Below, in pieces: positions 10,969-54,962 of a stretch of DNA of 64,000 nucleotides (the first letter of the stretch is position 1; each line of letters starts with the position of its first letter). Both the position numbers and the translations under genes were made by a program. The DNA is taken from positions 215,892 to 279,891 of the forward strand of contig JAWPOF010000007.1 of the NCBI GenBank assembly GCA_033345275.1, in the 5' to 3' direction. The DNA is from Alphaproteobacteria bacterium (GTDB lineage Bacteria > Pseudomonadota > Alphaproteobacteria > Rs-D84). The notes below the pieces were generated by a model that saw only the letters and a list, made by a program, of their open reading frames with translations, did not search any database and was not told the DNA's origin.

Positions 10969-11120
10969 TTTTATATTATTTTCACATATCGCGCGCAACA
11001 TAGCAAACTCCTAATTTTCAAAACCTGGGGAATCCGCATGCATAAACACACAATAAGTTGCGCGACTGGAACGAATTGATGTGTGCGTCACAAGGATACC
11101 CGCTTCCACACAACCAACCT

Positions 11121-11150
11121 TAATCTTGGTGCGGACGAAGGGGAGCGTGT
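11121..11150. repeat. imperfect copy of the 3' end of tRNA-Gly (putative att remnant)
   Basis: TTAATCTTGGTGCGGACGAAGGGGAGCG aligns with TTAAT-TTGGTGCGGGCGAAGGGAATCG at 13316-13345 (tRNA 3' end plus 5 flanking nt), with 3 mismatches and 1 indel. Confidence 0.5.
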
Positions 11151-11276
11151 TTATGCCATTTTTATGCTTTTTGGACCCTTTTTACCGCTTTTTTCCATTA
11201 AAAACATTTAAATGCCTGACACTTTGCTTGGCACTTTTATAAAATAACATGTTTTTGGTCAAAAGCACATGGTTTT

Positions 11277-11876: not shown

Positions 11877-12038
11877 AATTTTTCCTTTATTTTTTGTTAA
11901 TACCTGGTCATTTTTATAGAAAGATAGGTTTGAAGTGTGTTCGATCAGAATAAATTAGTTGATTTTACATAATGTACATTATAACATGATTATTGACGGG
12001 GGAAAATTGGAGATATAAAACGACAAAAGGTACATTTA

Positions 12039-12806
12039 ATGCTAAAAATCCCGTTGAATTCTGCGATATTGTCTAAACATAAATCAATTGCAGATTCTGT
12101 AAATGTTAAATACAAATCTAAATATGATCGCGAGAATTTTAGGCATACAGAATGTATGTTCCTGACGCAAAACGAAGGTAGATTAATATACACAACATGT
12201 CAAGGTACGCGTGCGTTAAAAAATTGGGAAGAAGTAGATTTTATTTTACCGTATCCGTTGGCGATTAATTTGTCGTCTGTGCCATATGGTTTATCAGAGT
12301 CATATTCTTGCTTGGAAATTCCAGATTGTACAATGGAATCAATCAAAACTTTTTATGATTCTTCGCGGCCAAAATATATCAAAGATTCTGATTTACATAC
12401 CAAGGTTGTTGCAATTAATAACCGTCGTGCAAATGTGGAATTTATTGATCCAAAACGTTTTGATCTGAATTTTGATGTTTATTTCAAAATGGTTAAGGAA
12501 AATCCACTAACAGACATAAGTAAATTTGCATGGTTTATGCGAAATAGTGAAGATAAAATTGATTATTATGATATTGCTAAAATATACAGATTAGTATTCG
12601 GACAGCATAATGTATTTTATAAAATGGGTGAACAGCAAATCTTGCGTAGTATTAATCAGTTGCATGCCAAGGCCAGCACGCACGGCATAATAGAACATTC
12701 GACACACGATGGTGTAGAAATGGAAACATATCATTTTCCATTTACGATATTCGAAGATGCAAATCAAAAACTTATGTGGCAGGGTTTTGCACAACGTGTG
12801 AAATAA
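12039..12806 (+). CDS. hypothetical protein (islet cargo)
   Basis: The 255-aa ORF is AT-rich with no recognisable motif. It is divergent from the recombinase gene. Confidence 0.4.
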   Translation: MLKIPLNSAILSKHKSIADSVNVKYKSKYDRENFRHTECMFLTQNEGRLIYTTCQGTRALKNWEEVDFILPYPLAINLSSVPYGLSESYSCLEIPDCTMESIKTFYDSSRPKYIKDSDLHTKVVAINNRRANVEFIDPKRFDLNFDVYFKMVKENPLTDISKFAWFMRNSEDKIDYYDIAKIYRLVFGQHNVFYKMGEQQILRSINQLHAKASTHGIIEHSTHDGVEMETYHFPFTIFEDANQKLMWQGFAQRVK

Positions 12807-13277
12807 ATTAAATGTTATCTAAATTGCATCACCGATAACAATAGTTTTTTTGATATTTTCTTGGTGCTGGTTGTTGTGATGCCAAGGCGAGTCCAAAGTC
12901 CCGGATTTCCAATAGTGGTTGGTCAGTTGATTTTATATCGCAGATCATAATTGGGATAAAATTGGATATCGTGGTATGGTGATTGATATTATGGCTGCGT
13001 ATTCTAGATTATATATTGCTGATAATAAATAGTTATCAAAATGCCCCAGCGTGCATTTTAATAACTGTGGTTGTGGCGCACTCAATTCCCTCGGCATAAA
13101 TGCCTGCGGGGCATTCCTAACGATTTGATTGCGCGCATATACAGATTGTCATTTGCTTGACAGTTTGCTTTACACTTTTTGAACATAGTTATTTGCCTAT
13201 TATTTTTCAAGTGTTCCAAGCAAAAAAATATTGGAATTACAATACATTGGTTGCATTGCTGTTTCTTGTGTATCAAA

Positions 13278-13305
13278 CAAAAAAATCCGACAGATAATGC
13301 CGGAT
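13278..13305 (-). terminator. terminator downstream of tRNA-Gly
   Basis: On the minus strand, ATCCGGCATTATCTGTCGGAT is followed by TTTTTTT, 17 nt after the tRNA 3' end. Confidence 0.55.
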
Positions 13306-13322
13306 TTTCAATATTTTTAATT

Positions 13323-13396
13323 TGGTGCGGGCGAAGGGAATCGAACCCTCGTCTTCAGCTTGGGAAGCTGACGTGCTACCATTATACCACGCCCGC
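13323..13396 (-). tRNA. tRNA-Gly (anticodon CCC)
   Basis: Reverse complement: GCGGGCGTGGTATAATGGTAGCACGTCAGCTTCCCAAGCTGAAGACGAGGGTTCGATTCCCTTCGCCCGCACCA. It has a 7-bp acceptor, anticodon loop TTCCCAA, T-loop TTCGATT and an encoded CCA. It closely resembles E. coli glyU. Confidence 0.9.
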
Positions 13397-13464
13397 AAAA
13401 GTACAACTTGAATGATATAACAAAAACTATCTCATGTCCAGAACAGATTTTGCTTAGCTACATT

Positions 13465-13932
13465 TTACCTGTTTTTCGACCCACGCCTTGTTAACCGTCT
13501 ATCATTACTGTACTTTTCCTTATCTTTCTTTTTATTCAAATTTTTGTCTGTATCTTTTGCAACGGTCGTCACACGGACACTCATAATAGTTTCGACAAGA
13601 CCGGATTTAATGTCATACCGATAATCGACCTGGCACAAACAATCGGCCTTGACTGCATTATTGCAATGCCTGTGCATAGGCTGCAGATTATCCAAAGAAT
13701 CACTGCCACCCGCAGATTTTGGCACTATATGATCCCAGGTAAAATCTTTTATATTATAAATATAGTCATGGCACCACGGACAGACTGGATAATGCCCACT
13801 AAGAATCAACAACGAATAAATCTTTTTCAAATGACGCCGTGTCAACTGGTCTGGATTCTTTTCCAAAGCCCGCAACAGCATCATCGCTTCACCGGCAAAC
13901 GACATACAAACACACCCTTTATTTACCTGCAA
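13465..13932 (-). CDS. HNH endonuclease-domain protein
   Basis: 'CPWCHDYI...WDHIVPKSAGGSDSLDNLQPMHRHCN' is an HNH motif, followed by a Lys-rich tail. The start is uncertain (13932 or MSFAGE at 13905). Confidence 0.7.
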   Translation of the reverse strand: MQVNKGCVCMSFAGEAMMLLRALEKNPDQLTRRHLKKIYSLLILSGHYPVCPWCHDYIYNIKDFTWDHIVPKSAGGSDSLDNLQPMHRHCNNAVKADCLCQVDYRYDIKSGLVETIMSVRVTTVAKDTDKNLNKKKDKEKYSNDRRLTRRGSKNR

Positions 13933-40343: not shown

Positions 40344-40387
40344 TGGCGTGCCCAGCAGGACTCGAACCTGCAACCTATTGCTTAGAA
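40344..40387 (-). repeat. direct repeat: 3' half of tRNA-Arg(UCU), from CCA end to anticodon loop
   Basis: TGGCGTGCCCAGCAGGACTCGAACCTGCAACCTATTGCTTAGAA matches 54682-54725 at 43 of 44 positions (C/T at position 18). Homology stops inside the anticodon loop. Confidence 0.9.
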
Positions 40388-40606
40388 ATCGTCTGAACCC
40401 AGACCGATGGTTCGCCCGATTTCTGCCCACTTGCGCCATTTTACCCTTATGGCAAACGCCATACTATGTAGCAAATATGTAACATTTTTGTAAAAATGTC
40501 CATAAAAAACTATAAAACTCCCTTTGTTGTATCTTGCACGCTGTTTTTTACTGACAAATATTTTGAACCATTGTATAAATAATATCGTTATGTACATGAA
40601 AGGACT

Positions 40607-40951: not shown

Positions 40952-40983
40952 TGGTAGCAGCGGAGGGATTCGGACCCCCGACC
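40952..40983 (-). pseudogene. tRNA 3'-end-like fragment (T arm + acceptor strand + CCA) without a 5' half
   Basis: Reverse complement: GGTCGGGGGTCCGAATCCCTCCGCTGCTACCA. The T stem-loop is plausible, but no matching 5' acceptor strand, D arm or anticodon arm lies upstream. Confidence 0.4.
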
Positions 40984-41227: not shown

Positions 41228-41256
41228 TTGACTTTTTTATAAAAATCCTATACCAT
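41228..41256 (+). promoter_or_regulatory. sigma70-like promoter of the thrS-paralog cassette
   Basis: TTGACT, a 17-nt spacer, then TACCAT (alternatively TATACC). Confidence 0.4.
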
Positions 41257-41266
41257 ACCAAACGTT

Positions 41267-41323
41267 ATGAAATTGTTATTTTTTATCTTTGAAACTTATA
41301 CTACAACCCCTTTTGGGGTGTAA
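41267..41323 (+). promoter_or_regulatory. 18-codon Thr-rich mini-ORF in the thrS-paralog leader (candidate leader peptide)
   Basis: ATG AAA TTG TTA TTT TTT ATC TTT GAA ACT TAT ACT ACA ACC CCT TTT GGG GTG TAA encodes MKLLFFIFETYTTTPFGV*. The Thr codons lie in the 5' arm of an imperfect hairpin at 41294-41325 (ACTTA...ACCCC TTTT GGGGT...TAAGT). Confidence 0.4.
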
Positions 41324-41410: not shown

Positions 41411-43174
41411 ATGTCAAACAAATATGAAATAGAAATAATCAGACATAGTCTGGCACACGTTTTGGCGGCGGCTATAAAAAAACTATACCCAGATGTAAAA
41501 TTTGGCGGTGGTCCCGCTATTGCTAATGGCTTTTATTATGATTTTGATACGGAACATAGATTTTCTGATGCAGAATTTGCCACAATTGAAAAGGAAATGA
41601 AAAACCTAATTAAAAGCCGCGGTAATTTCGTTCAAAAAAACGTGTCTCTTGATGAAGCGAAAGAGATTTTCAAAGACCAACCATATAAAACCGAATGGCT
41701 AAATGAATATAATGATTTTGGCAAACAGCTATCTATTTACTCTTTTCGTGATTTTACAGACTTGTGTATTGGTCCCCACGTTGAAAATTCAAAAGATTTA
41801 CCAACAGACTCTTTTAAAATCAAATCTATTGCCGGCGCTTATTGGAAAGGCGACAGTAAAAATAAAATGTTGCAACGTATTTATGTAGATGCTTTCGCCA
41901 CAAAAGAAGAATTGGATTCGTTTCTTTTCGCACAAGAGGAGGCCGCAAAACGAGACCATAGAAAAATTGGTCCGGCGCTAGATTTATTTTTCTTTGATGA
42001 AAGGTCTCCGGGCGTTCCGTATTTTATGCCAAACGGGTGGATTGTTTATCGCGAATTATATAATTTTTGGTCCGAATATCACGAAAAACACGGCTATTTG
42101 GAATTTCGTTCGCCACTGATGAACAAAAAAGAACTGTACGAAACAAGTGGGCATTGGGAACATTATAAGGATAGTATGTTCACTTTCAAAGAAGATGATA
42201 ACAATGTTTTTGCTCTAGCGCCAATGTCTTGTCCGAATGCTATTGTTGCATATCAACACGAATCACGCAGTTATCACGATTTACCGTGGCGTTTGGCCGA
42301 TGCAGATATGCTCTATCGTTATGAAAATTCTGGTGCTTTGAACGGGTTGTTTAGGTCTTTTGAATTTAATCAAGACGATGCGCATATTTTTATTAGTGAA
42401 GATATGATAGAAGACGAGTACAATCGTATTATTGACATAATTCAATATTATTATAAATTGTTTGATATGAAATATTTTATAAAATTATCAACAAGACCTG
42501 ACGATTTTATGGGAGATATTGAAACTTGGAACAAAGCAGAGGCCATTTTGAAAAAAGTACTTACTGCACGATTTGGAGAAAATGGTTTTGGAATCAAGGA
42601 AAAAGACGGTGCGTTCTATGGACCAAAATTAGACATTCAGATGGTTGATAGTTTGGGAAGAGAATGGCAAACAGGTACTATCCAATTAGATTTCCAATTG
42701 CCACGAAATTTCAACTGTGTGTACACGGATAAGAATGGCGAGAAACAAACACCAATTATTGTTCATCGTACCGTTTATGGTTCTTTGGGCAGATTTATGG
42801 GATTGATGCTGGAACACTTGGCAGGCAAGCTGCCCGTTTGGTTGTCTCCTGTTCACGCAGTAATTATACCGATTTCCGACCACTGCAAAGAATATGCAGA
42901 TAGCATAGCTGCCCAGTTGCAAGATGTATATGTAAGAACTGCAACAGCTGGATTGCGCATCAAAAAAGACTATTCGTCTGAAAGTATGCAAAAGAAGATA
43001 CGAAATGCGCAACTTAAACAAGTTCCATATATGATTATTGTTGGCGATAAAGAACTAGAATCGCAAACAATATCGGTCAGAACCAGAGACGGCAAACAAG
43101 AAAATAATGTACAAATAGATAGTTTTATACAAAAGTTAACAGATAAAATCAAAAATAGAGACTTAACTATATGA
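41411..43174 (+). CDS. thrS: threonyl-tRNA synthetase paralog lacking the N-terminal TGS domain
   Basis: The 587-aa product starts at the editing domain ('IIRHSLAHVLAAAIKKLYP...GFYYDFD'). The class II core is 'PMSCPNAIV', 'YRYENSGALNGLFRSFEFNQDDAHIF' and 'PIIVHRTVYGSLGRF', followed by an anticodon-binding domain. It is AT-rich and inside the island. Confidence 0.9.
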   Translation: MSNKYEIEIIRHSLAHVLAAAIKKLYPDVKFGGGPAIANGFYYDFDTEHRFSDAEFATIEKEMKNLIKSRGNFVQKNVSLDEAKEIFKDQPYKTEWLNEYNDFGKQLSIYSFRDFTDLCIGPHVENSKDLPTDSFKIKSIAGAYWKGDSKNKMLQRIYVDAFATKEELDSFLFAQEEAAKRDHRKIGPALDLFFFDERSPGVPYFMPNGWIVYRELYNFWSEYHEKHGYLEFRSPLMNKKELYETSGHWEHYKDSMFTFKEDDNNVFALAPMSCPNAIVAYQHESRSYHDLPWRLADADMLYRYENSGALNGLFRSFEFNQDDAHIFISEDMIEDEYNRIIDIIQYYYKLFDMKYFIKLSTRPDDFMGDIETWNKAEAILKKVLTARFGENGFGIKEKDGAFYGPKLDIQMVDSLGREWQTGTIQLDFQLPRNFNCVYTDKNGEKQTPIIVHRTVYGSLGRFMGLMLEHLAGKLPVWLSPVHAVIIPISDHCKEYADSIAAQLQDVYVRTATAGLRIKKDYSSESMQKKIRNAQLKQVPYMIIVGDKELESQTISVRTRDGKQENNVQIDSFIQKLTDKIKNRDLTI

Positions 43175-43243: not shown

Positions 43244-43345
43244 ATGACAAAAATTAAATTGTCTGCGATAATCCGTGTATCAAAATGCAATTCTTGCACT
43301 TGCTGCTGTGGCGGCGGCGGTGTTGGAGGAGATCCAGACCAATAA
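43244..43345 (+). CDS. 33-aa Cys-rich peptide, candidate RiPP precursor (unannotated, below the ORF-track cutoff)
   Basis: My translation is MTKIKLSAIIRVSKCNSCTCCCGGGGVGGDPDQ*. The strong RBS AAAGGAG ends 6 nt before the ATG. The gene lies 83 nt upstream of the radical SAM gene and is followed by a hairpin. Confidence 0.7.
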   Translation: MTKIKLSAIIRVSKCNSCTCCCGGGGVGGDPDQ

Positions 43346-43365: not shown

Positions 43366-43397
43366 CTGGGAAATATGTATTTGTTTCCCAGTTTTTT
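43366..43397 (+). terminator. intra-operon (probably leaky) terminator after the peptide gene
   Basis: CTGGGAAA-TATGTATTTG-TTTCCCAG (8-bp perfect stem) is followed by TTTTTT. Confidence 0.65.
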
Positions 43398-43428
43398 AAT
43401 AAATAATCTAATAAAGACAGGCAAAAAA

Positions 43429-44589
43429 ATGTTAAAACTATCCTCAGACATTATACGGTTCAAAAATTTTCTTATTAACACCAGAACAGGCGACTCTTTT
43501 GAAGTAGATGAAAAAACGAGTAGACTGATTGACTTTAAGGCAATAAATAGAACGGAAGAAAATTCATCTTTATTGGATACGATGATAGATAACAACATTA
43601 TTGTTGATACTGCTTATGATAAAGAAAAAAACTTTTTTCATTTGCAATGGCATTTGTTAAACGCCTGTAATTTAAGATGCAAACATTGTTATGATTGGAA
43701 AAACAAAACACAGACTTTAAATATTAAACAGATGTTTAAGGTGTATGACGATTTTGTATTTTTTGTAAAAAACGTTGGAGCACAGGCAGAAATTTCTTTG
43801 ACGGGAGGCGAACCTACCCTGTTCAAAGATTTAATACCCCTTATAGAATACATAAAGTCTAGAGATGTTTTTGCCCAAATTTACATACTATCTAATGGTT
43901 ATAATTTATTTAGCGATGAACTCTTGGAATGTTGCATAAAACATAATGTTGGTGTTCAAATCAGTTTAGATGGCTTAGAAGAAAAGCACGACGAGATAAG
44001 AGGCACTGGCGCTTTTGCTAAATCTATTGCAACTATCAAACAGCTAATAAGCAAAGGAATTTCTACCACGGTTCATTGCGTTCTTATGAAACGGAATATT
44101 GATGGAGTAGCAGAGTTTATTAGATTTTTAGACCCGATGGGATTATCAAGAATCAATTTCTCTACATTGATACCTATTGGTCCGGGGGCAGCAGAAGCAG
44201 CAGCAACTCCTCAAGAATTAAAAAAATGTATGGAGATGATAGTTGAAATGCAATCGACCACAAAAGCACGCATAATAGGAGAACGTCCATTATGGGCTTT
44301 GGTAGGTGGTTCTGGTATTTGCCCAATAGGAGACAAAACGTTGACCGTAGATGCAGCAGGCAATATGATGCCGTGTCGCAGACTACCTATGGTTATGGGA
44401 AATGTTCTTGAAGATAATTTATTAGAAGTTTGGTTAAAAAATGACTTTTTGAATAAAATGAGAGATAAGAAAAAGAATCTGGAAAAATGCGGAACGTGCA
44501 AATTTCTGGAAAGATGCGGCGGGTGTAGAGCTATGGCAGCGGCTGTCACTGGCAATCCACTAGCAGCAGACCCCTATTGCTGGCTCTAA
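43429..44589 (+). CDS. radical SAM/SPASM-type peptide-modifying enzyme (candidate maturase)
   Basis: ORF 43285..44589, with real start most likely MLKLSSD at 43429 because the upstream part overlaps the peptide gene out of frame. It has the 'CNLRCKHC' CxxxCxxC cluster, a ~90-aa N-terminal pre-domain, and the C-terminal Cys cluster 'CPIGDKTLTVDAAGNMMPC...CGTCKFLERCGGC...C'. Confidence 0.8.
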   Translation: MLKLSSDIIRFKNFLINTRTGDSFEVDEKTSRLIDFKAINRTEENSSLLDTMIDNNIIVDTAYDKEKNFFHLQWHLLNACNLRCKHCYDWKNKTQTLNIKQMFKVYDDFVFFVKNVGAQAEISLTGGEPTLFKDLIPLIEYIKSRDVFAQIYILSNGYNLFSDELLECCIKHNVGVQISLDGLEEKHDEIRGTGAFAKSIATIKQLISKGISTTVHCVLMKRNIDGVAEFIRFLDPMGLSRINFSTLIPIGPGAAEAAATPQELKKCMEMIVEMQSTTKARIIGERPLWALVGGSGICPIGDKTLTVDAAGNMMPCRRLPMVMGNVLEDNLLEVWLKNDFLNKMRDKKKNLEKCGTCKFLERCGGCRAMAAAVTGNPLAADPYCWL

Positions 44590-44632: not shown

Positions 44633-45697
44633 ATGAGAGTAGTAATGAAAAATAGTTTGAACAAAAGTCTTTTAAAACAATTATTGAATACCGTTGTTCC
44701 TTCTGGTTATGAACAAGATATTGTTCGTCTTTGGACAAGTAAGGCAAAAGAGTTTACAAAAGATGTATATGTTGACTCAATGGGTTCTGCTCACGCTGTA
44801 ATAAATTCCAAGGCTAAAAGAAAAATTATAATAGCTGGACATTGTGATGAGATAGGTCTTATTGTAAAATCAATCACAGATAAGGGTTTTTTGAAAATAG
44901 GAACTATTGGTGGTTGGGACCCGCAAGTAGTTGTAGGACAACACGTTTTAATAAAAACCGCGAAAGGAATACAAAGGGGCGTTGTTGGTAAGCAACCAAT
45001 TCATAATATAATAGATATTAAAGCAGCCTCAAAAATAAAAGATTTATTTGTTGATATTGGCGCACCGGATAAACAATCCGCTGAAGCAATAGTGCAGATT
45101 GGGGACGCTATGGTTTTAGACCACGATTATGTAGAACTTCAAAACAATAACTTTGCTTCTAGGGGGTGCGATGATAAAGTCGGTGCTTTCATAGCATTGG
45201 AGGTTTTGCGTGAATTAAGCAAAGAAAAACTAGCAGTTGCAGTTGAGTTTATTGCATCTGTACAAGAAGAAGTCGGTACAAGAGGTATTCAACCTGCGGC
45301 ATATTTAGCAGATGCAGATATTGCTATCGCGGTAGATGTTAGCCCGACTAACGACTACCCCAATGCAGGCGCAGACAATGAACTTAAATTGGGCAAAGGG
45401 GCAGTAATCGGTAGAGGTCCACACGTAAATGCAAAATTATTTGAACTTCTCAAAAGTACTGCGGAATCCAATTCAATTCCATATCAAATAGAGGCTAGTG
45501 GTCGTCCATACGGAACAGACACAGAACCTTTGCAACGGGTTCGCAAGGGAACGGCGAGCGCTTTGCTTAGTATCCCTTGTAGGTATATTCATTCTCCATC
45601 TGAAACCTGCAATTTTGATGATATTCAGGCCATAATAAAATTGTTAGTACAAACTATATCTAAGATAACTACAAAAACAGATTTTAATTTTATTTAA
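44633..45697 (+). CDS. M42-family (FrvX/YsdC-like) aminopeptidase
   Basis: 'LLNTVVPSGYEQDI', 'IIIAGHCDEIGLIV', 'SRGCDDKVG', 'VQEEVGTRG' and 'PCRYIHSPSE'. The start is 44633 or MKNSL at 44645. Confidence 0.8.
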   Translation: MRVVMKNSLNKSLLKQLLNTVVPSGYEQDIVRLWTSKAKEFTKDVYVDSMGSAHAVINSKAKRKIIIAGHCDEIGLIVKSITDKGFLKIGTIGGWDPQVVVGQHVLIKTAKGIQRGVVGKQPIHNIIDIKAASKIKDLFVDIGAPDKQSAEAIVQIGDAMVLDHDYVELQNNNFASRGCDDKVGAFIALEVLRELSKEKLAVAVEFIASVQEEVGTRGIQPAAYLADADIAIAVDVSPTNDYPNAGADNELKLGKGAVIGRGPHVNAKLFELLKSTAESNSIPYQIEASGRPYGTDTEPLQRVRKGTASALLSIPCRYIHSPSETCNFDDIQAIIKLLVQTISKITTKTDFNFI

Positions 45698-45780
45698 AAT
45701 AAGCCTATGCCGTTTTTGGTGTCGGCTTTTCTCTATTGCTTTTTTTATAGTTTTGTGATATAATACCATAAAATCAAGTG

Positions 45781-45802
45781 GACGGTTCTAACCGTCTTTT
45801 TT
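45781..45802 (+). terminator. terminator-like hairpin downstream of the cassette
   Basis: GACGGTTCTAACCGTC is followed by TTTTTT. Confidence 0.5.
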
Positions 45803-45852
45803 ATTGCCTTGGCGCTCGTGCCGGGGCTTTTTTTCTTTCCGTAGGAGTTTTT

Positions 45853-45981
45853 ATGGCTAACACCAGCGCAAAGTTATTGCGTGCTAAACAGACTAAAAAT
45901 GATGAGTTCTATACGCAATACAACGATATAAAATCAGAACTAGAGGGAGAGAAATATGAAGAACAAACAGACCAAGAATAA
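45853..45981 (+). pseudogene. N-terminal fragment of an EcoRI-like (DEFYTQ-type) adenine methyltransferase
   Basis: 'MANTSAKLLRAKQTKNDEFYTQYNDIKSELE' has RBS AGGAG. As I recall it, this is the N-terminus of phage/RM adenine MTases. The ORF ends after 42 codons, overlapping the macA-like start. Confidence 0.5.
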
Positions 45982-47155
45982 AAAATCCAGCAAACGCATT
46001 CTGAAATACGGTGTGTTTGCGCTGGCAATTATTGGTACGATTGCAGTGTTTAGTGGTGGTGGCGATGAAAAACGCAACTATATCACGATAAATATAACGC
46101 GTGGCGACCTGTCCTATACGGTCAGTGCAACCGGTGAAATTCAACCTGTCAACACAGTAAATGTGGGTTCGCAAGTATCGGGAACAATTGACAATCTGTA
46201 TGTTGACTTTAATTCCAACGTTAAAAAAGGCGATATATTGCTGACGATTGAACCATCTGTTCTTCAGGCATCTGTTGACGAGGCCATGGCATCACTAACA
46301 TCTGCAAAATCCCAACGGGATTTCGCATTCAGCGAATACAAACGCAACAAAACCTTGTATAACGATGGCTTTATTTCACGTGCAGAAATGGAACAATCCG
46401 AAACCACATATAACCAGGCCGAACAATCTGTTAAAAAAGCCCAATCTACATACGACCGTGCGGTGACAAATCTGGGCTATGCAACGATTACATCCCCTGT
46501 CGATGGCACAGTTATATCACGCAAAGTTGATGTTGGTCAAACGGTTGCGGCATCTTTTTCAACACCCGACCTGTTTGAAATCGCCGAAGACCTGACCAAA
46601 ATGCAGATTGAAACATCTGTATCCGAGGCAGACATTGGTGTTATCCGCGAAGGTCAACCCGTCACATTCACCGTTGATGCATACCCAACAGATATTTTTA
46701 ACGGCACTGTTCGTCAGGTTCGCTTGTCCCCCACAACAACATCCAACGTTGTCGTTTATACGGTTGTAATTGATGTTGATAATTCTGATATGCGCCTGAT
46801 GCCAGGAATGACCGCATTCGTAACCGTTATTATCAACAGTGCTGAAAATGTGTACAAAGCACAAAATGCCGCTTTCCTTATTCGCAATTTCAAAAGCATT
46901 GACCCAACATTAGATGAAACGATTACACCCGACACCCATCTGGCAATTATGCGTGATGGTGAAATTCAATTTATTGAATATAAAAAAGGGCTGGAATCTG
47001 CCACAGAAACACAAATTATATCAGACCAGATAATGGATGGCGACCGCATCGTTGTCGGTGTCCAAGGACAAACATCCACAACCCAATCAAGCAACAATCG
47101 CGGTGGTCCAATGGGCGGTCCTGGTGGTGGCGGTCCAATGGGTAGACCAATGTAA
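45956..47155 (+). CDS. macA: HlyD/MacA-family periplasmic adaptor
   Basis: It has an N-terminal TM, 'ATGEIQPVNTVNVGSQVSGTI', a coiled-coil hairpin, 'ATITSPVDGTVISRKVDVGQTV' and a Gly-rich tail. Confidence 0.8.
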   Translation: MKNKQTKNKKSSKRILKYGVFALAIIGTIAVFSGGGDEKRNYITINITRGDLSYTVSATGEIQPVNTVNVGSQVSGTIDNLYVDFNSNVKKGDILLTIEPSVLQASVDEAMASLTSAKSQRDFAFSEYKRNKTLYNDGFISRAEMEQSETTYNQAEQSVKKAQSTYDRAVTNLGYATITSPVDGTVISRKVDVGQTVAASFSTPDLFEIAEDLTKMQIETSVSEADIGVIREGQPVTFTVDAYPTDIFNGTVRQVRLSPTTTSNVVVYTVVIDVDNSDMRLMPGMTAFVTVIINSAENVYKAQNAAFLIRNFKSIDPTLDETITPDTHLAIMRDGEIQFIEYKKGLESATETQIISDQIMDGDRIVVGVQGQTSTTQSSNNRGGPMGGPGGGGPMGRPM

Positions 47156-47168
47156 TATGGGGGCGACT

Positions 47169-47906
47169 ATGGCAAAAAATACACCTGTTATTTCAATGCA
47201 TAAAATCTGCAAATCGTTTCCCATGGAAATGGGCGGCGAACAACAGGTTTTATTTGACAACACATTTGATATTTATTCTGGCGAATTTGTATCTATTATG
47301 GGACCATCAGGGTCTGGCAAATCAACATGTATGAACATTATTGGTGCGCTGGACACCGCCACATCTGGGACATATAAACTCTATGGCACAGATATTACAA
47401 CAATGTTGCCCGATGAATTGGCCGTTGTCAGAAATGAACATATTGGCTTTGTTTTTCAACAGTTTAACCTGTTGCCGAAACGCAATGTTTTGGACAATGT
47501 AATGTTGCCATTGATGTATCGCGGACTGCCAATGGCGAAACGGGTACAAAGCGCCCGCGAAATGCTGAAACTGGTGGGGTTGGAAAACTTTGAAACATAC
47601 CTGCCAACACAATTATCAGGGGGGATGAAGCAACGTGTTGCAATCGCACGTGCGTTGGCAGGCAACCCAAAACTGATTTTGGCAGACGAACCTACAGGCG
47701 CACTGGACAGTAAAATGGGAAATGAAATTTTACAGTTCTTCAAGAAATTAAATCGTGAACTGGGGATAACAATCATAATGATTACACACGAATTTGATAT
47801 TGCCATGTATTCTGACCGCCTGATTCATATCTATGACGGGCATATCACATACGATGGCAAAATCCCAAAATCAGAATCACATATACCAAAGGCATATAAA
47901 AAATGA
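47169..47906 (+). CDS. macB: MacB/LolD-type ABC transporter ATP-binding protein
   Basis: The start MAKNTPVI has a GGGGG RBS. It has Walker A 'GPSGSGKST', signature 'LSGGMKQRVAIARAL' and Walker B 'ILADEPTGALD'. Confidence 0.88.
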   Translation: MAKNTPVISMHKICKSFPMEMGGEQQVLFDNTFDIYSGEFVSIMGPSGSGKSTCMNIIGALDTATSGTYKLYGTDITTMLPDELAVVRNEHIGFVFQQFNLLPKRNVLDNVMLPLMYRGLPMAKRVQSAREMLKLVGLENFETYLPTQLSGGMKQRVAIARALAGNPKLILADEPTGALDSKMGNEILQFFKKLNRELGITIIMITHEFDIAMYSDRLIHIYDGHITYDGKIPKSESHIPKAYKK

Positions 47907-49120
47907 ATATACAAGATATCGCCAAAGAATCATGGCTGTCCATCAGTGGTAATAAGATGCGGTCTTTTTTAACCGTCTTGGGAATTGTTATCGGTGTTAT
48001 GGCGGTGGTAATTATGGTGGCTGTCGGTGAAACTGTACAAAAATCCATCACAGACCAATTTTCATCGCTGGGGACGAACACCATTATGATACGAGCTGGC
48101 GCGGCACAGTCCGCCGGTGTGCGTGGTGGAAATCGCCAAACCCTAACCATGGACGATGCAGAATTTTTGGGACAATTACCCGATGTTGCGGCGGTCACCC
48201 CTGTTCAAAATGCTGCCGCCCAGGTTGTCTATGGGAATAAAAACTGGTCCACATCAATGGTCGGTGCATGGCCAGATTATGCAACCGTACAAAATATAGA
48301 AATAGAATATGGAACTTTCTTTGATATGTCTGCGGTACGAAACGCATCAACACATGCTGTCATTGGTCCCGAAACCGCCGAAGAGCTGGGGATGGGGAAA
48401 AATCCTGTGGGGCAAGTTATACGTGTGCAAAACACACCATTTACAATTGTCGGGGTCACACGTGCCAAGGGTGATTCATCTATGGGCAGCCAAGACGATA
48501 TGATTATCATTCCAATCACAACATTAAAGAAACGCCTGTCGGGTTCTCGTTTCCCAAATGCAGTACAAATGGTGTCATTAAAACTATATAACGATGCTGA
48601 TAATAATTTGGCAATTGAACAAATGACATTATTGTTGCGTCAACGACATAAACTGGACGACAATGATGCAGATGATTTTCAAATTACAGATATGAAGCAA
48701 GTCATGGAAACAATGGAAACTGTATCTGGATACTTAAAATTATTACTGGTTGCGATTGCGGCGGTGTCGCTTTTGGTTGGGGCAATCGGCATTATGAATA
48801 TGATGTTGGTTTCTGTTGCAGAACGCACACGTGAAATCGGTATTCGCAAGGCAATTGGTGCACGCGAACGCATGATTATTATTCAGTTTTTGTCGGAATC
48901 TGTTCTGATTTCTTTTATCGGTTCTATGATTGGTTTGATATTAGGGGTGGGATTATCCCAGGGCATTGGGCGTTTTGTATTGGGGTATGCTGTACCGTTC
49001 AGTATTTGGCCGGTTGTTGTATCGGTTACAGTTGCGATTGTGGTAGGGCTCGCATCTGGTGTTATGCCTGCACGCAAAGCCGCCAAATTACACCCAATAG
49101 ACAGCCTGCGATACGAGTAA
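47903..49120 (+). CDS. MacB/FtsX-type ABC transporter permease
   Basis: The 405-aa product has TM1, a large periplasmic domain and a C-terminal FtsX 3-TM bundle ('ERTREIGIRKAIGAR'). It overlaps the ATPase gene by 4 nt. Confidence 0.85.
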   Translation: MNIQDIAKESWLSISGNKMRSFLTVLGIVIGVMAVVIMVAVGETVQKSITDQFSSLGTNTIMIRAGAAQSAGVRGGNRQTLTMDDAEFLGQLPDVAAVTPVQNAAAQVVYGNKNWSTSMVGAWPDYATVQNIEIEYGTFFDMSAVRNASTHAVIGPETAEELGMGKNPVGQVIRVQNTPFTIVGVTRAKGDSSMGSQDDMIIIPITTLKKRLSGSRFPNAVQMVSLKLYNDADNNLAIEQMTLLLRQRHKLDDNDADDFQITDMKQVMETMETVSGYLKLLLVAIAAVSLLVGAIGIMNMMLVSVAERTREIGIRKAIGARERMIIIQFLSESVLISFIGSMIGLILGVGLSQGIGRFVLGYAVPFSIWPVVVSVTVAIVVGLASGVMPARKAAKLHPIDSLRYE

Positions 49121-49281: not shown

Positions 49282-49815
49282 ATGACAGCAATAAACAAGC
49301 AACACGGATTTTATGGTGCGCTGGCGGCGCACTATGACAGTCCAGACCACCGAAAAGCAATCTGGGACGTGACGGTCAAACGCCTGAGGCAAATTCACCC
49401 CGAAAAGTCCGCCGAAGAAATCATAAACTTTCTGAACAGTCGCGCCGGGCGACACCTGGCCGACGAGATATTCGACGGTCCCGGCACCATGAGTTATGGG
49501 GTTGCAATGCTGCGTGTGGCAATGCTGAACAAACTAAAAATGGCCAAGTGGTGGGCATATCACACCGGTACAACACCATGCCCCGTCACGGTGGACAAGC
49601 GCATGCTGTACCGGTCCGCAATCAAGAACGAAATGCGCAACTGCCGCATCCGCAAATTGGTGGACGGTGCGCTGGCCTGTGCCCAGGACGACGTATGGCA
49701 GACCCCAGAAATGTGGTTAAAATCAGACCTGACGGGGCTGGACGAACTGGAAATGATATGGACACAGATTCAGCAAGAACTAAAAACCAAAGGCACCGCA
49801 CATGGAAACGATTGA
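49282..49815 (+). CDS. hypothetical protein (island)
   Basis: The 177-aa ORF is visibly GC-richer than its neighbours and overlaps the next ORF by 14 nt. Confidence 0.45.
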   Translation: MTAINKQHGFYGALAAHYDSPDHRKAIWDVTVKRLRQIHPEKSAEEIINFLNSRAGRHLADEIFDGPGTMSYGVAMLRVAMLNKLKMAKWWAYHTGTTPCPVTVDKRMLYRSAIKNEMRNCRIRKLVDGALACAQDDVWQTPEMWLKSDLTGLDELEMIWTQIQQELKTKGTAHGND

Positions 49816-52673: not shown

Positions 52674-53153
52674 ATGTTATTATCAAGAAGAGAATATGCA
52701 GCGCATCGCGGGGTTGCGGTATCCGCGGTCCAAAAGGCCATTGAAACAAGACGAATAACACTAATAGACGGGAAAATAGACCCCGAAAAGGCAGATAAAG
52801 AATGGGCAGAGAACACTAACCCAGCCTATAACACCCCGCGCACAAATGACAGTTCTTCAAATTCTTATCAAAGAAGCAAAGCAATGAAGTCGACATACGA
52901 TGCAATGCTAAAGAAACTAGAATACGAAGAACGTGCAGGAAAGCTAATACCATTAGCACAAGCACAATCTGAGGCTTTTGCAGCAGCCCGATTTTCAAGG
53001 GAACAATTACTGATGATTCCGCGACGTGTTGCACCGCGACTTATCGGACAAACAAACATTTCCGACATTGAGTATATCTTGACCCAAGAAATTACAGAGG
53101 CGTTAAGAAATTTATGCAACATATTACAAGGAAACAAAGGAGAACAAAAATGA
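52674..53153 (+). CDS. terminase small subunit-like (Nu1-type HTH) protein
   Basis: 'LSRREYAAHRGVAVSAVQKAIETRRITLIDGKIDPEKADKEWAEN' resembles Nu1/DUF1441 N-terminal HTH proteins. This is from memory and not searched. Confidence 0.45.
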   Translation: MLLSRREYAAHRGVAVSAVQKAIETRRITLIDGKIDPEKADKEWAENTNPAYNTPRTNDSSSNSYQRSKAMKSTYDAMLKKLEYEERAGKLIPLAQAQSEAFAAARFSREQLLMIPRRVAPRLIGQTNISDIEYILTQEITEALRNLCNILQGNKGEQK

Positions 53154-53380
53154 CAAAAAACACAAAAACTGAAATCAAAACTGCATGGGATAAAACAGTT
53201 GCGTTTTTAATAAAACAATCAGACACAGTATCAGAAAACATCGCTTTGGAAATAATAGGGAAACCCAAAGATGAAATGCATGCAATTTTAAGTCGTGCAA
53301 TGACAGAATTCTGGGACATGGGCGAGCAATATTTCATACAAGAAATCCGCAAAAGCCAACAAAAAACACAAGAGCCTTGA
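53150..53380 (+). CDS. small hypothetical protein
   Basis: The MTKNTKTEIK start has RBS AAGGAG and overlaps the previous stop (ATGA). Confidence 0.4.
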   Translation: MTKNTKTEIKTAWDKTVAFLIKQSDTVSENIALEIIGKPKDEMHAILSRAMTEFWDMGEQYFIQEIRKSQQKTQEP

Positions 53381-53398
53381 TAGTCTTATTCACTGGAC

Positions 53399-54655
53399 TT
53401 GTGCGCTTTTATTATCAATGTTGTGTGTAACAAAGGACAACATATGCGAGCACTCAAATGTCAAAAGTTGGTTTTAACAACAGGATTTCTGAACAAGCTG
53501 AAATCTGACATTGATTTGCAGATAACAGATGCGGCACTGCCGGGGCTACAATGCCGGTATTCTGCCGCATCTGGGCGCAAAGTGTTCTATTTGGGATATC
53601 GCGTTCGCGGTTCATATCAACAAAAGCATATGAGATTGGGCACATTGGCGGAATTTAGCTTAAATGAGATTCGCGCACGTGCGATACAAACCAAGCAAGA
53701 TATCGCCAAGGGCCTGGACCCGCAATCAGAACAGCGCATACGCATAAAGCAAAACGAAATAGCCGCAGCACTACGGAAACAAGTCCGTGAACTAACCCCA
53801 ATATTTATGGAAAAACATTGTCGCGAAAACAATCGGGAAAACACCTATCGCTCAAACGAAATATTGATGCGCCTGTATATAATCCCATATCTTGGCGATA
53901 AATACATTGCAGATATCGATCTGTGCACAATCCAAGACATGTACGACAAAATCAAAAACACTAAAACCGTTGCTGTCGCACTACACGTTATGCGGTTATT
54001 GTCGACTTTTCTGAATTGGTGCGAAAAATACAATTATCGCACAATAAATTCAAATCCGTGCCATTTGGTTCAAAAGGCAAAATCCCCAAAGATGAACCAT
54101 ACGATTCTAGATATTGATGGTTATAAACGTTTATTTACTGCACTGGACGAGGCATTTTGTGCTGGGAAATATGCACCGCAAACCATCCTGGCTATTAAAA
54201 CACTTGCACTGACAGGCTGTCGCAGCAGCGAAATAACAAGCCTGGAACGGGACGAATTAGACCTAGAAAACGGGTATCTACGTTTAAATAAACGCAAAAC
54301 AGATGCATTTAATGTGCCACTGGGCGATCCAGCAATAGAAGTTATAAAACAGGCGTTAAGAATTTGTAAAAGCAAACAGTATGTTTTTCATTCCCCAATT
54401 GACCATACACGCCCATTAACCGATTTGCGTAAAGCGTTCTGGTGGGCATTGGACCGTGCGGAATTACCGCGTATGCGCATACATGACCTGCGTCATTCGT
54501 TTGCAACACTAGCAACCAGCATGGGCGAAGATATACGAATATTAAAAGACGTACTGGGACACACAAAAATCACCACAACAGAAATATACGCACACGCATC
54601 AAGTATTGCAGCACGTCGCACCGCAAACAATGTCGCCAGCATGATAACAGGATAA
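53399..54655 (+). CDS. int: tyrosine-type (phage) integrase
   Basis: It has 'LTGCRSSEITSL', 'RIHDLRHSFATLA' and 'LGHTKITTTEIYAH' (R..HxxR..Y). The start is possibly MRALKC at 53444. It ends 26 nt from tRNA-Arg. Confidence 0.92.
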   Translation: MCAFIINVVCNKGQHMRALKCQKLVLTTGFLNKLKSDIDLQITDAALPGLQCRYSAASGRKVFYLGYRVRGSYQQKHMRLGTLAEFSLNEIRARAIQTKQDIAKGLDPQSEQRIRIKQNEIAAALRKQVRELTPIFMEKHCRENNRENTYRSNEILMRLYIIPYLGDKYIADIDLCTIQDMYDKIKNTKTVAVALHVMRLLSTFLNWCEKYNYRTINSNPCHLVQKAKSPKMNHTILDIDGYKRLFTALDEAFCAGKYAPQTILAIKTLALTGCRSSEITSLERDELDLENGYLRLNKRKTDAFNVPLGDPAIEVIKQALRICKSKQYVFHSPIDHTRPLTDLRKAFWWALDRAELPRMRIHDLRHSFATLATSMGEDIRILKDVLGHTKITTTEIYAHASSIAARRTANNVASMITG

Positions 54656-54681: not shown

Positions 54682-54758
54682 TGGCGTGCCCAGCAGGATT
54701 CGAACCTGCAACCTATTGCTTAGAAGGCAATTGCTCTATCCGGTTGAGCCATGGGCAC
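54682..54758 (-). tRNA. tRNA-Arg (anticodon UCU)
   Basis: Reverse complement: GTGCCCATGGCTCAACCGGATAGAGCAATTGCCTTCTAAGCAATAGGTTGCAGGTTCGAATCCTGCTGGGCACGCCA. All four stems pair perfectly, with anticodon loop CTTCTAA and an encoded CCA. Confidence 0.92.
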
Positions 54759-54962
54759 AAAACCAACTCGTGGAATTCGGCGCAAACATGCGGTCAATTC
54801 CTGTGTAACATTCTATGTAACAAATATGTAACATTATACATACAATTACATACAATTCAATCAATCTGTGTCAAGTTTTATACAGAACTGATTTTCGCAC
54901 GCACCCGCATAAATCCAGCGTTTATACATCTTTATCCAAATCTATCCATAAAAATTGCGGAC

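What the first reader, a model, noticed from the sequence alone, without database searches (positions are those of the whole stretch)
41411..43174. Island-borne, TGS-less threonyl-tRNA synthetase heading the peptide cassette: self-resistance copy or Thr-tRNA supplier?
The 587-aa ThrRS begins at the editing domain (RHSLAH...) and lacks the ~60-aa N-terminal TGS domain. It is not followed by infC-rpmI-rplT as chromosomal thrS usually is. It sits inside a mobile island and shares the AT-rich composition of the peptide, rSAM and M42 genes. The Zn-ligand positions look conserved (C in PMSCP, H in DDAHIF, H in IVHRTV). Neighbouring active-site residues differ from the E. coli pattern as I recall it (CPGH becomes CPNA, HRNE becomes YRYE). 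Extra aaRS copies in biosynthetic clusters are established as self-resistance determinants for aaRS inhibitors; examples for ThrRS are BorO (borrelidin) and ObaO (obafluorin). Other clusters carry aaRS copies to supply aminoacyl-tRNA for peptide tailoring. Either role would tie the peptide product to threonyl-tRNA metabolism.
Basis: partly seen in the sequence, partly recalled or inferred. Interest (0 to 1): 0.8.

Follow-up and report, generated by a model that had tools for sequence, protein, structure and literature searches.

The report
Mobile ThrRS gene coupled to peptide cassette
A complete threonyl-tRNA synthetase gene, acquired from a related gut bacterium, travels on a mobile island together with a small cysteine-rich peptide gene and its radical-SAM maturase; relatives of this cassette sit beside thrS in several unrelated bacteria, so either the peptide acts on ThrRS or the cassette spreads by recombining through thrS.

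Summary
ORF 41411-43174 is an intact 587-aa ThrRS with editing, catalytic and anticodon-binding domains and no TGS domain. It heads a low-GC module: thrS, a 33-aa precursor, an rSAM/SPASM maturase and an M42 peptidase. The module lies in a 14.3-kb integrase-bearing island at tRNA-Arg.

Lack of TGS, CPNA/YRYE and the absence of infC are shared by all housekeeping ThrRS genes of the host genus (Ca. Enterousia, Rs-D84). Those genes occupy a conserved RsmE-RluA-TPR-thrS-SPOR locus.

The window copy is ectopic and compositionally foreign (GC3 0.31 against 0.42-0.52). It is at most 88% identical to any housekeeping copy and is under strong purifying selection.

New result: the peptide/maturase pair belongs to an undescribed "CTCC" RiPP family. 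thrS is adjacent in 5 of 16 lineages, in three arrangements, and in 0 of 60 outgroup loci. One relative has a chimeric thrS.

I could not test whether this genome also keeps a native thrS. Target-copy immunity (0.4) and a recombination passenger (0.35) remain close rivals. A Thr-tRNA supply role is unsupported.

The parts
41411..43174 (+). thrS: a complete TGS-less threonyl-tRNA synthetase (N2 editing, class II catalytic and anticodon-binding domains). It is an ectopic, horizontally acquired copy of the Enterousia type.
   Evidence: domains and catalytic residues; GC3 0.31; native locus elsewhere in relatives; phylogeny; dN/dS
41228..41321 (+). Promoter-like site (TTGACT-17-TACCAT, 41228-41256) and a 5'-UTR hairpin (ACAACCCC-TTTT-GGGGTGT, 41303-41321). 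The hairpin is also found upstream of native thrS genes and of the L088 cassette copy.
   Evidence: These are consensus matches and a short blastn match; function was not tested.
43244..43345 (+). Precursor peptide MTKIKLSAIIRVSKCNSCTCCCGGGGVGGDPDQ. It has an MKKIKLS-type leader and a conserved CTCC core.
   Evidence: ORF with AGGAG upstream; conserved family next to homologous maturases in 15 or more loci; no known family
43366..43400 (+). Terminator-like or attenuator hairpin between the precursor and the maturase gene.
43429..44589 (+). RiPP maturase: an N-terminal RRE-like domain, a radical SAM core (CNLRCKHCY) and a SPASM domain.
   Evidence: start as called in L001; conserved Cys; model pLDDT 90; best structural matches are SkfB, SuiB and CteB over the full length
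44633..45697 (+). M42-family metallo-aminopeptidase. It shares the low GC of the module but is not conserved in related cassettes. It is possibly a leader-trimming peptidase.
45778..45981 (+). N-terminal fragment of a DNA methyltransferase with two terminator-like hairpins. This is a junction scar between the low-GC module and the MacAB genes.
45956..49120 (+). MacA-like adaptor (45956-47155), ABC ATPase (47157-47906; DarD-like, 221 bits) and MacB-type permease (47903-49120). This is a likely exporter. Its composition is closer to the host's.
40344..40387 (.). attL: a direct repeat of the 3' half of tRNA-Arg (43/44 identical to 54682-54725). It marks the left end of the 14.3-kb island.
40952..40983 (-). 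Orphan tRNA/tmRNA-like 3'-end fragment at the left edge of the low-GC module. The Logan contig L001 starts here.
   Evidence: weak hit
52674..54655 (+). Small-terminase-like gene (52674-53153) and a P4-type tyrosine integrase (53399-54655). These are the mobility genes of the island.
54682..54758 (-). tRNA-Arg(TCT), the integration site (attR lies in its 3' half).

Best explanation
The gene is a working ThrRS that belongs to a mobile three-gene unit: thrS, a CTCC precursor and an RRE-rSAM/SPASM maturase. In this window the unit also carries an M42 peptidase and sits next to a MacAB-type exporter. The unit was imported from a lower-GC Enterousia relative on an integrase-bearing island at tRNA-Arg.

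The most likely role of thrS is to keep threonyl-tRNA charging going in a cell that makes, or meets, the cassette's thioether-type peptide. On this reading ThrRS is the peptide's target, and protection comes from a tolerant allele or simply from extra enzyme.

Shown: the gene is intact and catalytically complete; it is foreign, ectopic and co-mobilised with the peptide genes; and the cassette family is non-randomly linked to thrS.

Inferred: that a native thrS coexists in this genome; that the peptide acts on ThrRS; and that this copy protects.
For: 1. The copy is foreign and ectopic.
- GC3 matches rSAM and M42, not the host.
- Thirteen or more relatives keep thrS in a conserved RsmE-RluA-TPR-thrS-lipoprotein-SPOR locus.
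- No GTDB species representative has a copy more than 86% aa or 79% nt identical.
- The host's LeuRS falls in 90%-identity clusters of 6 and 260 sequences. This ThrRS's cluster has 4 members, and the exact sequence is on 2 contigs.

2. The same three genes recur as a unit in another context. L088 has rSAM and ThrRS each 86% identical, on 3.65-kb contigs with identical 23-nt ends.

3. thrS is adjacent to the cassette in 5 of 16 lineages of the close maturase family. The arrangements are upstream, downstream co-directional, and convergent. It is adjacent in none of 60 outgroup loci covering 259 kb of flank.

4. The copy is under strong purifying selection: dN/dS 0.02-0.05.

5. Six positions that are invariant in the housekeeping copies are changed in both cassette copies, where about 1.6 are expected by chance. 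They include E. coli positions 376/377 near the ATP site.

6. An ectopic thrS without a cassette lies next to tRNA-Gly in L086, which resembles an orphan immunity gene.

7. A GNAT replaces thrS beside the basal family member in L092.

8. There is precedent. RiPP BGCs of the tiarin family carry aaRS copies or GNATs as immunity (preprint 10.64898/2025.12.02.691738). BorO and ObaO are the ThrRS examples, cited from my own knowledge.
Against: - No distinctive active-site substitution separates this copy from 19 housekeeping orthologs. The changed residues (S, F) occur naturally in other relatives.
- In other lineages the adjacent thrS looks like the host's own gene. L099 is host-like in GC3 along its whole length. 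L116 is an ordinary CPR ThrRS with only two conservative unique changes. L089 is host-like except for its last ~100 codons.
- The relative-rate excess is slight.
- A second thrS in this genome was not demonstrated.
- The peptide's activity is unknown.
Confidence: 0.4

Rival explanations
1. Passenger or recombination anchor. The cassette family was ancestrally placed beside thrS and spreads by recombining within or next to thrS. thrS sequence is therefore dragged along, exchanged or duplicated as a by-product. In this window a whole thrS came along with the peptide genes. It is an ordinary synthetase with no role in the peptide's biology: redundant, or a replacement for a lost native copy.
For: - L089 has a chimeric thrS. 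GC3 is 0.42-0.64 over ~540 codons, then 0.18 over the last ~100, which matches the foreign rSAM at 0.16. A displaced host-like thrS 3' fragment lies on the other side of the cassette.
- The window and L088 thrS genes are mosaics. The window's first ~300 nt are 85% identical to L086 and at most 71% to the others. The L088 5' end and 190 nt upstream match native loci.
- Between the window and L088, thrS dS exceeds rSAM dS.
- thrS-adjacent members are basal in both clades of the maturase tree, so one ancestral linkage plus losses is enough.
- No resistance-like substitutions were found.
Against: - Adjacency survives in three different arrangements and across hosts whose thrS genes are only 38-44% identical. 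That is hard to achieve by homology alone.
- None of 15 native Enterousia thrS loci carries the cassette, although this model predicts such donors.
- A redundant 1.8-kb gene should decay in genomes under 1 Mb (PMC12306168). Yet two cassette copies that have diverged to 78% nt identity are both intact.
Confidence: 0.35
2. Sole housekeeping thrS. The genome has lost or never had the native-locus copy, and the island gene does all Thr-tRNA charging. It overlaps with the passenger model.
For: - Enterousia genomes are under 1 Mb and streamlined, so duplicates should be rare.
- The gene is intact, carries every catalytic residue and is under strong purifying selection.
- L089 keeps only one intact thrS and a remnant of another, which shows that redundancy is resolved in this cassette family.
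Against: - Foreign composition and island location mean it cannot be the vertically inherited copy.
- The relatives examined carry thrS at the native locus or, in L086, at another ectopic site.
- The island looks recent. A 6.5-kb stretch is 100% identical in another sample, and only two contigs carry it.
Confidence: 0.15
3. Thr-tRNA supplier. The extra ThrRS feeds threonyl-tRNA to a tRNA-dependent tailoring step on the peptide.
For: - An invariant Thr lies in the CTCC core.
- aaRS genes occur in some tRNA-dependent pathways (mentioned).
Against: - No PEARL/LanB-like, Fem-type, CDPS or L/F-transferase-like protein is present in the module or in the minimal cassettes of relatives, which hold only a peptide, an rSAM and thrS.
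- The enzyme is a full housekeeping-type synthetase, not a truncated paralog.
- The core Thr is genetically encoded.
Confidence: 0.05

Closest known systems
BGC-encoded resistant aaRS copies: BorO (borrelidin) and ObaO (obafluorin) for ThrRS, and the aaRS(BGC) copies of tiarin RiPP clusters
   Same: - A full-length aaRS gene lies next to biosynthetic genes and is mobilised with them.
- In tiarins, RiPP clusters are enriched in aaRS genes, with GNATs as the alternative. That pattern is echoed here by L092.
   Different: - The biosynthetic chemistry differs: an rSAM/SPASM maturase acting on a CTCC peptide, not TfxB/C, PKS or NRPS.
- A second housekeeping copy was not shown here.
- There are no diagnostic substitutions.
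- In several relatives the adjacent thrS appears to be the host's own gene, which is not the tiarin pattern, where a duplicate was found in every case.
Sactipeptide/ranthipeptide maturases with an RRE (SkfB, CteB/SCIFF, SuiB)
   Same: - RRE, radical SAM and SPASM architecture.
- A short Cys-rich precursor encoded immediately upstream.
- These are the best sequence and structure matches.
   Different: - Only 17-20% identity.
- All NCBIfam maturase models score below their cut-offs.
- The precursor family (MKKIKLS...SCTCC.GG) matches no curated family.
- None of those systems is linked to thrS, to my knowledge.
Integrative islands at tRNA genes (P4-type integrase; PICI-like satellites with terS)
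   Same: - The integrase lies next to tRNA-Arg.
- There is a 44-nt att repeat.
- The island has foreign composition and a small-terminase-like gene.
   Different: - The cargo includes an essential-type translation gene.
- The island is a mosaic, with an orphan tRNA-like fragment, a methylase scar and the remnant of an older integrase beside it.
Duplicated ThrRS T1/T2 of cyanobacteria (stress-specialised paralogs; PMC4787780, seen)
   Same: Possibly two ThrRS genes of the same specificity in one genome.
   Different: - No link to zinc regulation is known here.
- The copy is mobile and attached to a RiPP cassette.
- This comparison was not examined further.

Membership tests
Threonine--tRNA ligase (TIGR00418 equivalog) | Whole-protein score above the curated cut-off | tested here: met
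   615.2 bits against a cut-off of 383.65, covering model positions 1-564 of 565
Threonine--tRNA ligase (TIGR00418 equivalog) | Class II catalytic core with Zn ligands (E. coli C334, H385, H511) and the substrate residues R363, Y462 and K465 | tested here: met
   All are conserved in the alignment to 1QF6
Threonine--tRNA ligase (TIGR00418 equivalog) | N2 editing domain with H73, H77, C182 and H186 | tested here: met
   RHSLAH and DLCIGPH align to the E. coli motifs; tRNA_SAD Pfam hit
Threonine--tRNA ligase (TIGR00418 equivalog) | N-terminal TGS (N1) domain. This is typical of bacterial ThrRS but does not define the family. | tested here: not met
   No PF02824 hit, and the alignment starts at E. 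coli residue 67. Housekeeping orthologs of the genus, and many CPR and Clostridia ThrRS, also lack it.
BGC-borne self-resistance aaRS (BorO / ObaO / tiarin aaRS-BGC type) | Encoded inside or directly beside the biosynthetic genes and inherited with them | tested here: met
   thrS lies 70 bp upstream of the precursor. It shares the module's composition, and the same unit recurs in L088.
BGC-borne self-resistance aaRS (BorO / ObaO / tiarin aaRS-BGC type) | A second, housekeeping copy of the same specificity elsewhere in the same genome | not testable with these tools
   Only 64 kb of the MAG is visible, and the genome collection scan returned no locus from this genome. Indirect support only: relatives keep a native locus, and the window copy is not the lineage's vertical copy.
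BGC-borne self-resistance aaRS (BorO / ObaO / tiarin aaRS-BGC type) | Sequence differences from the sensitive housekeeping enzyme at inhibitor-contact sites | tested here: inconclusive
   About 30 changes fall at positions invariant in the housekeeping copies. Six are shared by position with the L088 copy, including E. coli 376/377. All are conservative and seen in other relatives. L116 has none.
BGC-borne self-resistance aaRS (BorO / ObaO / tiarin aaRS-BGC type) | The cluster product inhibits the cognate aaRS, and the BGC copy confers resistance | not testable with these tools
   Needs biochemistry
RRE-dependent rSAM/SPASM RiPP maturase with adjacent precursor (sacti-/ranthipeptide-like) | CxxxCxxC radical SAM motif and a SPASM domain | tested here: met
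   Pfam Radical_SAM and SPASM hits. C80/C84/C87 and the C-terminal Cys residues are invariant in 25 homologs.
RRE-dependent rSAM/SPASM RiPP maturase with adjacent precursor (sacti-/ranthipeptide-like) | N-terminal RiPP recognition element | tested here: met
   There is no Pfam PqqD hit. The AF2 model (pLDDT 90) shows a beta-sheet-plus-helices N-domain, and it aligns over the full length with SkfB, SuiB and CteB.
RRE-dependent rSAM/SPASM RiPP maturase with adjacent precursor (sacti-/ranthipeptide-like) | A conserved short precursor encoded next to the maturase | tested here: met
   MKK(I/V)KLS...(S/A)CTCC.(C/G)GG peptides lie upstream of the maturase in the window, L088, L089, L094, L096, L102, L110 and L116. 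A derived ...SCCTSCK group also exists.
RRE-dependent rSAM/SPASM RiPP maturase with adjacent precursor (sacti-/ranthipeptide-like) | Membership of a named maturase family (CteB/SCIFF, PapB, SkfB, ACGX, SbtM and others) | tested here: not met
   All NCBIfam maturase models score far below their cut-offs; the best is 155 bits against 395.
tRNA-dependent peptide tailoring systems (PEARL, Fem-type, CDPS) | An aminoacyl-tRNA-using transferase in the cluster | tested here: not met
   No such domain appears among the module's proteins or in the minimal cassettes of relatives.
tRNA-targeting integrative island | Tyrosine integrase beside a tRNA gene, att direct repeats and foreign composition | tested here: met
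   Integrase at 53399-54655, tRNA-Arg at 54682-54758, a 43/44 repeat at 40344-40387, and a low-GC interior

The most novel reading that the evidence does not exclude
CTCC peptides matured by this RRE-rSAM/SPASM family are a new class of ThrRS-directed ribosomal peptides. Their cassettes either carry their own thrS, as here and in the 3.65-kb L088 unit, or recombine into the host's thrS. Target and toxin genes therefore stay linked as the cassette moves between reduced-genome gut and groundwater bacteria (Rs-D84 Alphaproteobacteria, Patescibacteria and others).
Probability: 0.3. Interest if true: 0.85.

Novelty: new variant of a known kind. Interest (0 to 1): 0.66.

Why it matters
If the link is functional, thrS adjacency predicts the target of an uncharacterised RiPP family, which would be a natural peptide inhibitor of ThrRS. 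It would also extend the 'resistant target copy in the cluster' rule from PKS/NRPS products and tiarins to radical-SAM peptides, in bacteria with genomes under 1 Mb where a duplicated essential gene is costly.

If the link is only mechanical, it is a clear case of a small gene cassette spreading by recombination through an essential gene and leaving chimeric synthetases behind. That matters for reading aaRS phylogenies, and it warns against taking every aaRS near a BGC as a resistance gene.

Either outcome can be tested with a few expression constructs.

Tried and rejected
1. Two ThrRS genes on one 575-kb contig. P0027 and the L099 cassette lie on contigs of 575,070 and 574,916 bp. I rejected the idea that these are the same contig: GC is 0.38 against 0.61 and the tetranucleotide correlation is 0.4.

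2. Finding a native thrS of the window's own MAG. The genome-contig scan returned only other genomes. Cluster listings show no member on the 292,839-bp contig.

3. Convergent substitutions in cassette-linked ThrRS. L116 differs from 21 CPR relatives at only two conservative sites. No shared signature was found.

4. Accelerated evolution of the ectopic copies. They show only about 1% lower identity to outgroups (z = -1.3 to -2.1), which is not convincing.

5. Monophyly of the ectopic copies. Bootstrap support is 24-62%, so this is unresolved, probably because the genes are mosaics.

6. Phage or plasmid carriage of the cassette. There were no relatives in IMG/VR and only matches below 30% identity in PLSDB.

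7. T-box or another known RNA element upstream of thrS. Rfam found nothing significant.

8. A known family for the precursor or the maturase. None was found in NCBIfam, and Pfam found no PqqD domain.

9. A precursor-like gene downstream of native thrS. It is instead a conserved small lipoprotein.

10. thrS remnants flanking the window module or L088. None were found.
Full report
**1. The gene**

ORF 41411-43174 (+) encodes 587 aa.
- Pfam finds the ThrRS/AlaRS second additional (editing) domain, the class II core and the anticodon-binding domain. It finds no TGS domain.
- NCBIfam TIGR00418 (thrS) scores 615 bits against a cut-off of 384.
- Against E. coli ThrRS (1QF6) the alignment runs from E. 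coli residue 67 to 637.
- The Zn ligands C334/H385/H511, the editing residues H73/H77/C182/H186, and R363, Y462 and K465 are all conserved.

This is a complete, apparently competent synthetase that lacks only the N1/TGS domain.

**2. The host, and which traits are lineage traits**

DnaK, MacA and MacB cluster with proteins named 'MAG: Alphaproteobacteria bacterium', and the source contig is 292,839 bp. The closest ThrRS relatives (80-88% identity) come from rumen and gut MAGs that include 'Candidatus Enterousia sp.'. Enterousia belongs to the order Rs-D84 and has genomes under 1 Mb (PMC12306168).

Close relatives with enough flanking sequence to judge place thrS in one conserved locus: RsmE-like methyltransferase, pseudouridine synthase, TPR protein, thrS, a small lipoprotein, a SPOR protein, TatA. 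P0004 in L086 is an exception, treated in section 4. Those housekeeping genes are 585 aa. They lack TGS, read MSCPNA and LYRYE(N/S)SG, and are not followed by infC.

**3. Island and module**

tRNA-Arg(TCT) lies at 54682-54758 (-), with a P4-type integrase (Arm-DNA-binding plus catalytic domains) ending 27 bp away. A 44-nt copy of the tRNA's 3' half lies at 40344-40387 and is 43/44 identical. Together these bracket a 14.3-kb island. The island also holds a small-terminase-like gene.

Inside the island, the genes fall into two composition groups:

| Genes | GC3 |
|---|---|
| thrS | 0.31 |
| rSAM | 0.31 |
| M42 | 0.25 |
| Host housekeeping genes | 0.42-0.52 |
| MacAB | 0.39-0.42 |

A methyltransferase N-terminal fragment with terminators separates M42 from MacA. 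An orphan tRNA-like 3' end lies at the module's left edge. The island is therefore a mosaic, and thrS-precursor-rSAM-M42 is one imported block within it.

A promoter-like site follows thrS. A terminator-like hairpin separates the precursor from the maturase, which is a common RiPP operon layout.

**4. The copy is not the lineage's vertical thrS**

- No GTDB species representative has a copy more than 86% aa or 79% nt identical.
- The exact protein is on two contigs only. One of them is a 6.5-kb Logan contig that is 100% identical to the window.
- The host's LeuRS belongs to well-populated 90%-identity clusters of 6 and 260 sequences. The ThrRS cluster has four members.
- In an NJ tree, the genus housekeeping copies plus the ectopic copies (window, L088/P0007 and P0004) form a clade with 100% bootstrap support. 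Internal branching is unresolved.
- The gene is a mosaic. Its first ~300 nt are 85% identical to the ectopic thrS of L086, which lies beside tRNA-Gly, and at most 71% to the others. The rest of the gene is 80-90% identical to housekeeping types.
- dN/dS against any partner is 0.02-0.05, with synonymous sites saturated.
- The relative-rate excess is marginal.

Whether this genome also keeps a native-locus thrS could not be tested. That is the main gap.

**5. The peptide cassette is real and new**

The 33-aa ORF at 43244-43345 (MTKIKLSAIIRVSKCNSCTCCCGGGGVGGDPDQ) has an AGGAG upstream.

The maturase has the CxxxCxxC motif and a SPASM domain. Its AF2 model (pLDDT 90) has an N-terminal RRE-like domain. 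Its best full-length structural matches are SkfB, SuiB and CteB.

Homologs at 42-86% identity occur in Alphaproteobacteria, Tannerella, Patescibacteria and others. Most of those examined are preceded by a related peptide, MKK(I/V)KLS...(S/A)CTCC.(C/G)GG, or by a derived ...SCCTSCK form. No such peptide was found in L092 or in the partial locus L118. No curated family covers either the peptide or the enzyme.

M42 and MacAB are not conserved parts of the cassette.

**6. The cassette family is linked to thrS**

Among 16 lineages of the close maturase family, thrS is the immediate neighbour in five:

| Locus | Arrangement |
|---|---|
| Window / L001 | thrS > peptide > rSAM |
| L088 | Same order; rSAM and ThrRS each 86% identical to the window's; 3.65-kb contigs with identical 23-nt ends |
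| L089-L091 | peptide > rSAM, convergent with a 644-aa thrS that has a TGS domain |
| L096-L101 | peptide > rSAM > a 591-aa thrS |
| L116 (Moranbacteria) | rSAM convergent with thrS |

None of 60 more distant rSAM loci, with 259 kb of flanks, has a thrS. The ThrRS proteins involved are only 38-44% identical to one another.

Even if thrS adjacency had a chance probability as high as 0.4% per lineage, four or five independent hits in 16 lineages would be very unlikely. This is my own estimate. In the maturase tree, however, the thrS-linked members are basal in both clades. One ancestral linkage followed by losses is therefore as parsimonious as repeated gains.

**7. What the relatives say about mechanism**

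- In L099 the adjacent thrS is host-like in GC3 throughout (0.86-1.0). MatE, the maturase and a downstream antitoxin-like gene are foreign in composition (about 0.6), and tRNA-Val and the peptide gene lie between MatE and the maturase.
- In L089, thrS is host-like for ~540 codons. It then drops to GC3 0.18 for the last ~100 codons, matching the foreign maturase at 0.16. A host-like fragment encoding a ThrRS C-terminus lies on the far side of the cassette. The cassette evidently entered by recombination inside thrS and brought a replacement 3' end.
- L116's ThrRS is an ordinary CPR enzyme.

These facts fit a model in which the cassette travels with thrS sequence and recombines with the resident gene. 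They do not require ThrRS to be the peptide's target.

Other facts point the other way:
- Linkage persists in three orientations.
- The cassette is absent from all 15 native Enterousia loci examined.
- Two intact cassette-borne copies that diverged long ago exist in genomes prone to gene loss.
- L086 has an 'orphan' ectopic thrS.
- A GNAT stands in place of thrS in L092.
- The tiarin work found aaRS genes and GNATs enriched next to RiPP operons as immunity determinants.

**8. Sequence test for a resistant allele**

I compared the window copy with 19 housekeeping copies. It differs at about 30 near-invariant positions. Six of these are also changed in the L088 copy: Y205F, T316S, Y317F/L, E507, D571 and D586. 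About 1.6 would be expected by chance. Two of the six (E. coli 376/377) lie in the motif-2 region near the ATP site.

All the replacements are conservative, and S and F occur in other relatives. This is a hint of an altered selective regime, not evidence of resistance.

**9. Verdict**

The gene is an imported, ectopic, functional-looking thrS that forms a mobile unit with a new RiPP cassette, and the thrS link is a property of the whole cassette family.

I rank the explanations as follows:
- Target-copy protection: 0.4.
- Passenger or recombination anchor: 0.35.
- Sole-copy replacement: 0.15. This overlaps with the passenger model.
- Thr-tRNA supply: 0.05. No aminoacyl-tRNA-using enzyme is present.

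It is a new variant of a known kind, namely an aaRS gene tied to a biosynthetic cluster. It deserves experimental follow-up, because a few constructs would decide between the two leading models.

Noticed in passing
L020 3691-10597 (MAG SGB_6600, Alphaproteobacteria): Two ThrRS genes flank a kinase-like gene and two rSAM/SPASM genes. One is a housekeeping-type 587-aa copy. The other is a divergent 644-aa copy (35-37% identical) that keeps CPGH/YRNE but has lost the editing HxxxH motif. These rSAM genes belong to a different family from the window's, so this is a second, independent thrS-rSAM neighbourhood.
   Followed up: partly
L089 7658-11142 (also L090, L091): A chimeric thrS. The 5' ~540 codons are host-like and the last ~100 codons have the very low GC3 (0.18) of the adjacent foreign maturase. 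A displaced host-like ThrRS C-terminal fragment lies on the other side of the cassette.
   Followed up: yes
L088 1-3671 (Logan SRR31228071) and sister contigs of 3653-3656 bp: The thrS-precursor-rSAM unit assembles as ~3.65-kb contigs in four runs. The first and last 23 nt of L088 are identical. This suggests a circular, tandem or repeat-flanked three-gene element. Its 190 nt upstream of thrS match native thrS upstream regions.
   Followed up: partly
L086 1-2100: A 587-aa thrS with the same MSNKY N-terminus as the window copy lies 250 bp downstream of a tRNA-Gly 3' end and next to LysM-PFK-DnaK. That region is syntenic with window 13.3-16.3 kb. This is an ectopic thrS without any peptide cassette.
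   Followed up: partly
window 10000-13932: A second low-GC patch (0.33-0.39) lies downstream of tRNA-Gly(CCC) at 13323-13396. It holds a serine resolvase (11277-11876) and an HNH endonuclease (13465-13932). It is probably another integrated element.
   Followed up: no
window 32582-38161 (-): A giant 1859-aa ORF with low GC, strong AT skew and no Pfam or NCBIfam hit. One segment is 60% identical to part of a CarboxypepD_reg-like protein next to the native thrS locus in L002.
   Followed up: no
window 38356-40012: To the left of attL lie an Mpi-like DNA invertase (38356-38958), a 34-nt remnant of an integrase 3' end (39394-39427, 91% identical to the intact integrase end) and a low-GC 175-aa ORF. 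That ORF matches a PHROG acetyltransferase family but no Pfam family. This looks like the remains of an older island at the same tRNA-Arg site.
   Followed up: partly
window 40460-40486 and 54809-54835: A 27-nt block (CATnCTATGTAnCAAATATGTAACATT, 93% identical) lies at a similar distance (about 75-85 nt) beyond both att copies. It may be an integrase arm site or part of a captured tRNA upstream region.
   Followed up: no
L002, L004, L006-L015, L087: first ~200 bp after thrS: Every native Enterousia thrS is followed by a conserved ~50-aa lipoprotein gene (MKKI...AGC..CE.EPIVE.NHKLIVPP.FG..P.K). Several assemblies did not call it as a gene.
   Followed up: no
window 49282-49815: A 177-aa ORF with GC 0.53 and GC3 0.62, far above both the island and the host. 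Its only match is an unknown-function PHROG.
   Followed up: no
P0375: A LeuRS 84% identical to the host's is named in nr as 'MAG TPA: leucyl-tRNA synthetase [Microviridae sp.]'. This is almost certainly a mis-binned or mislabelled record.
   Followed up: no
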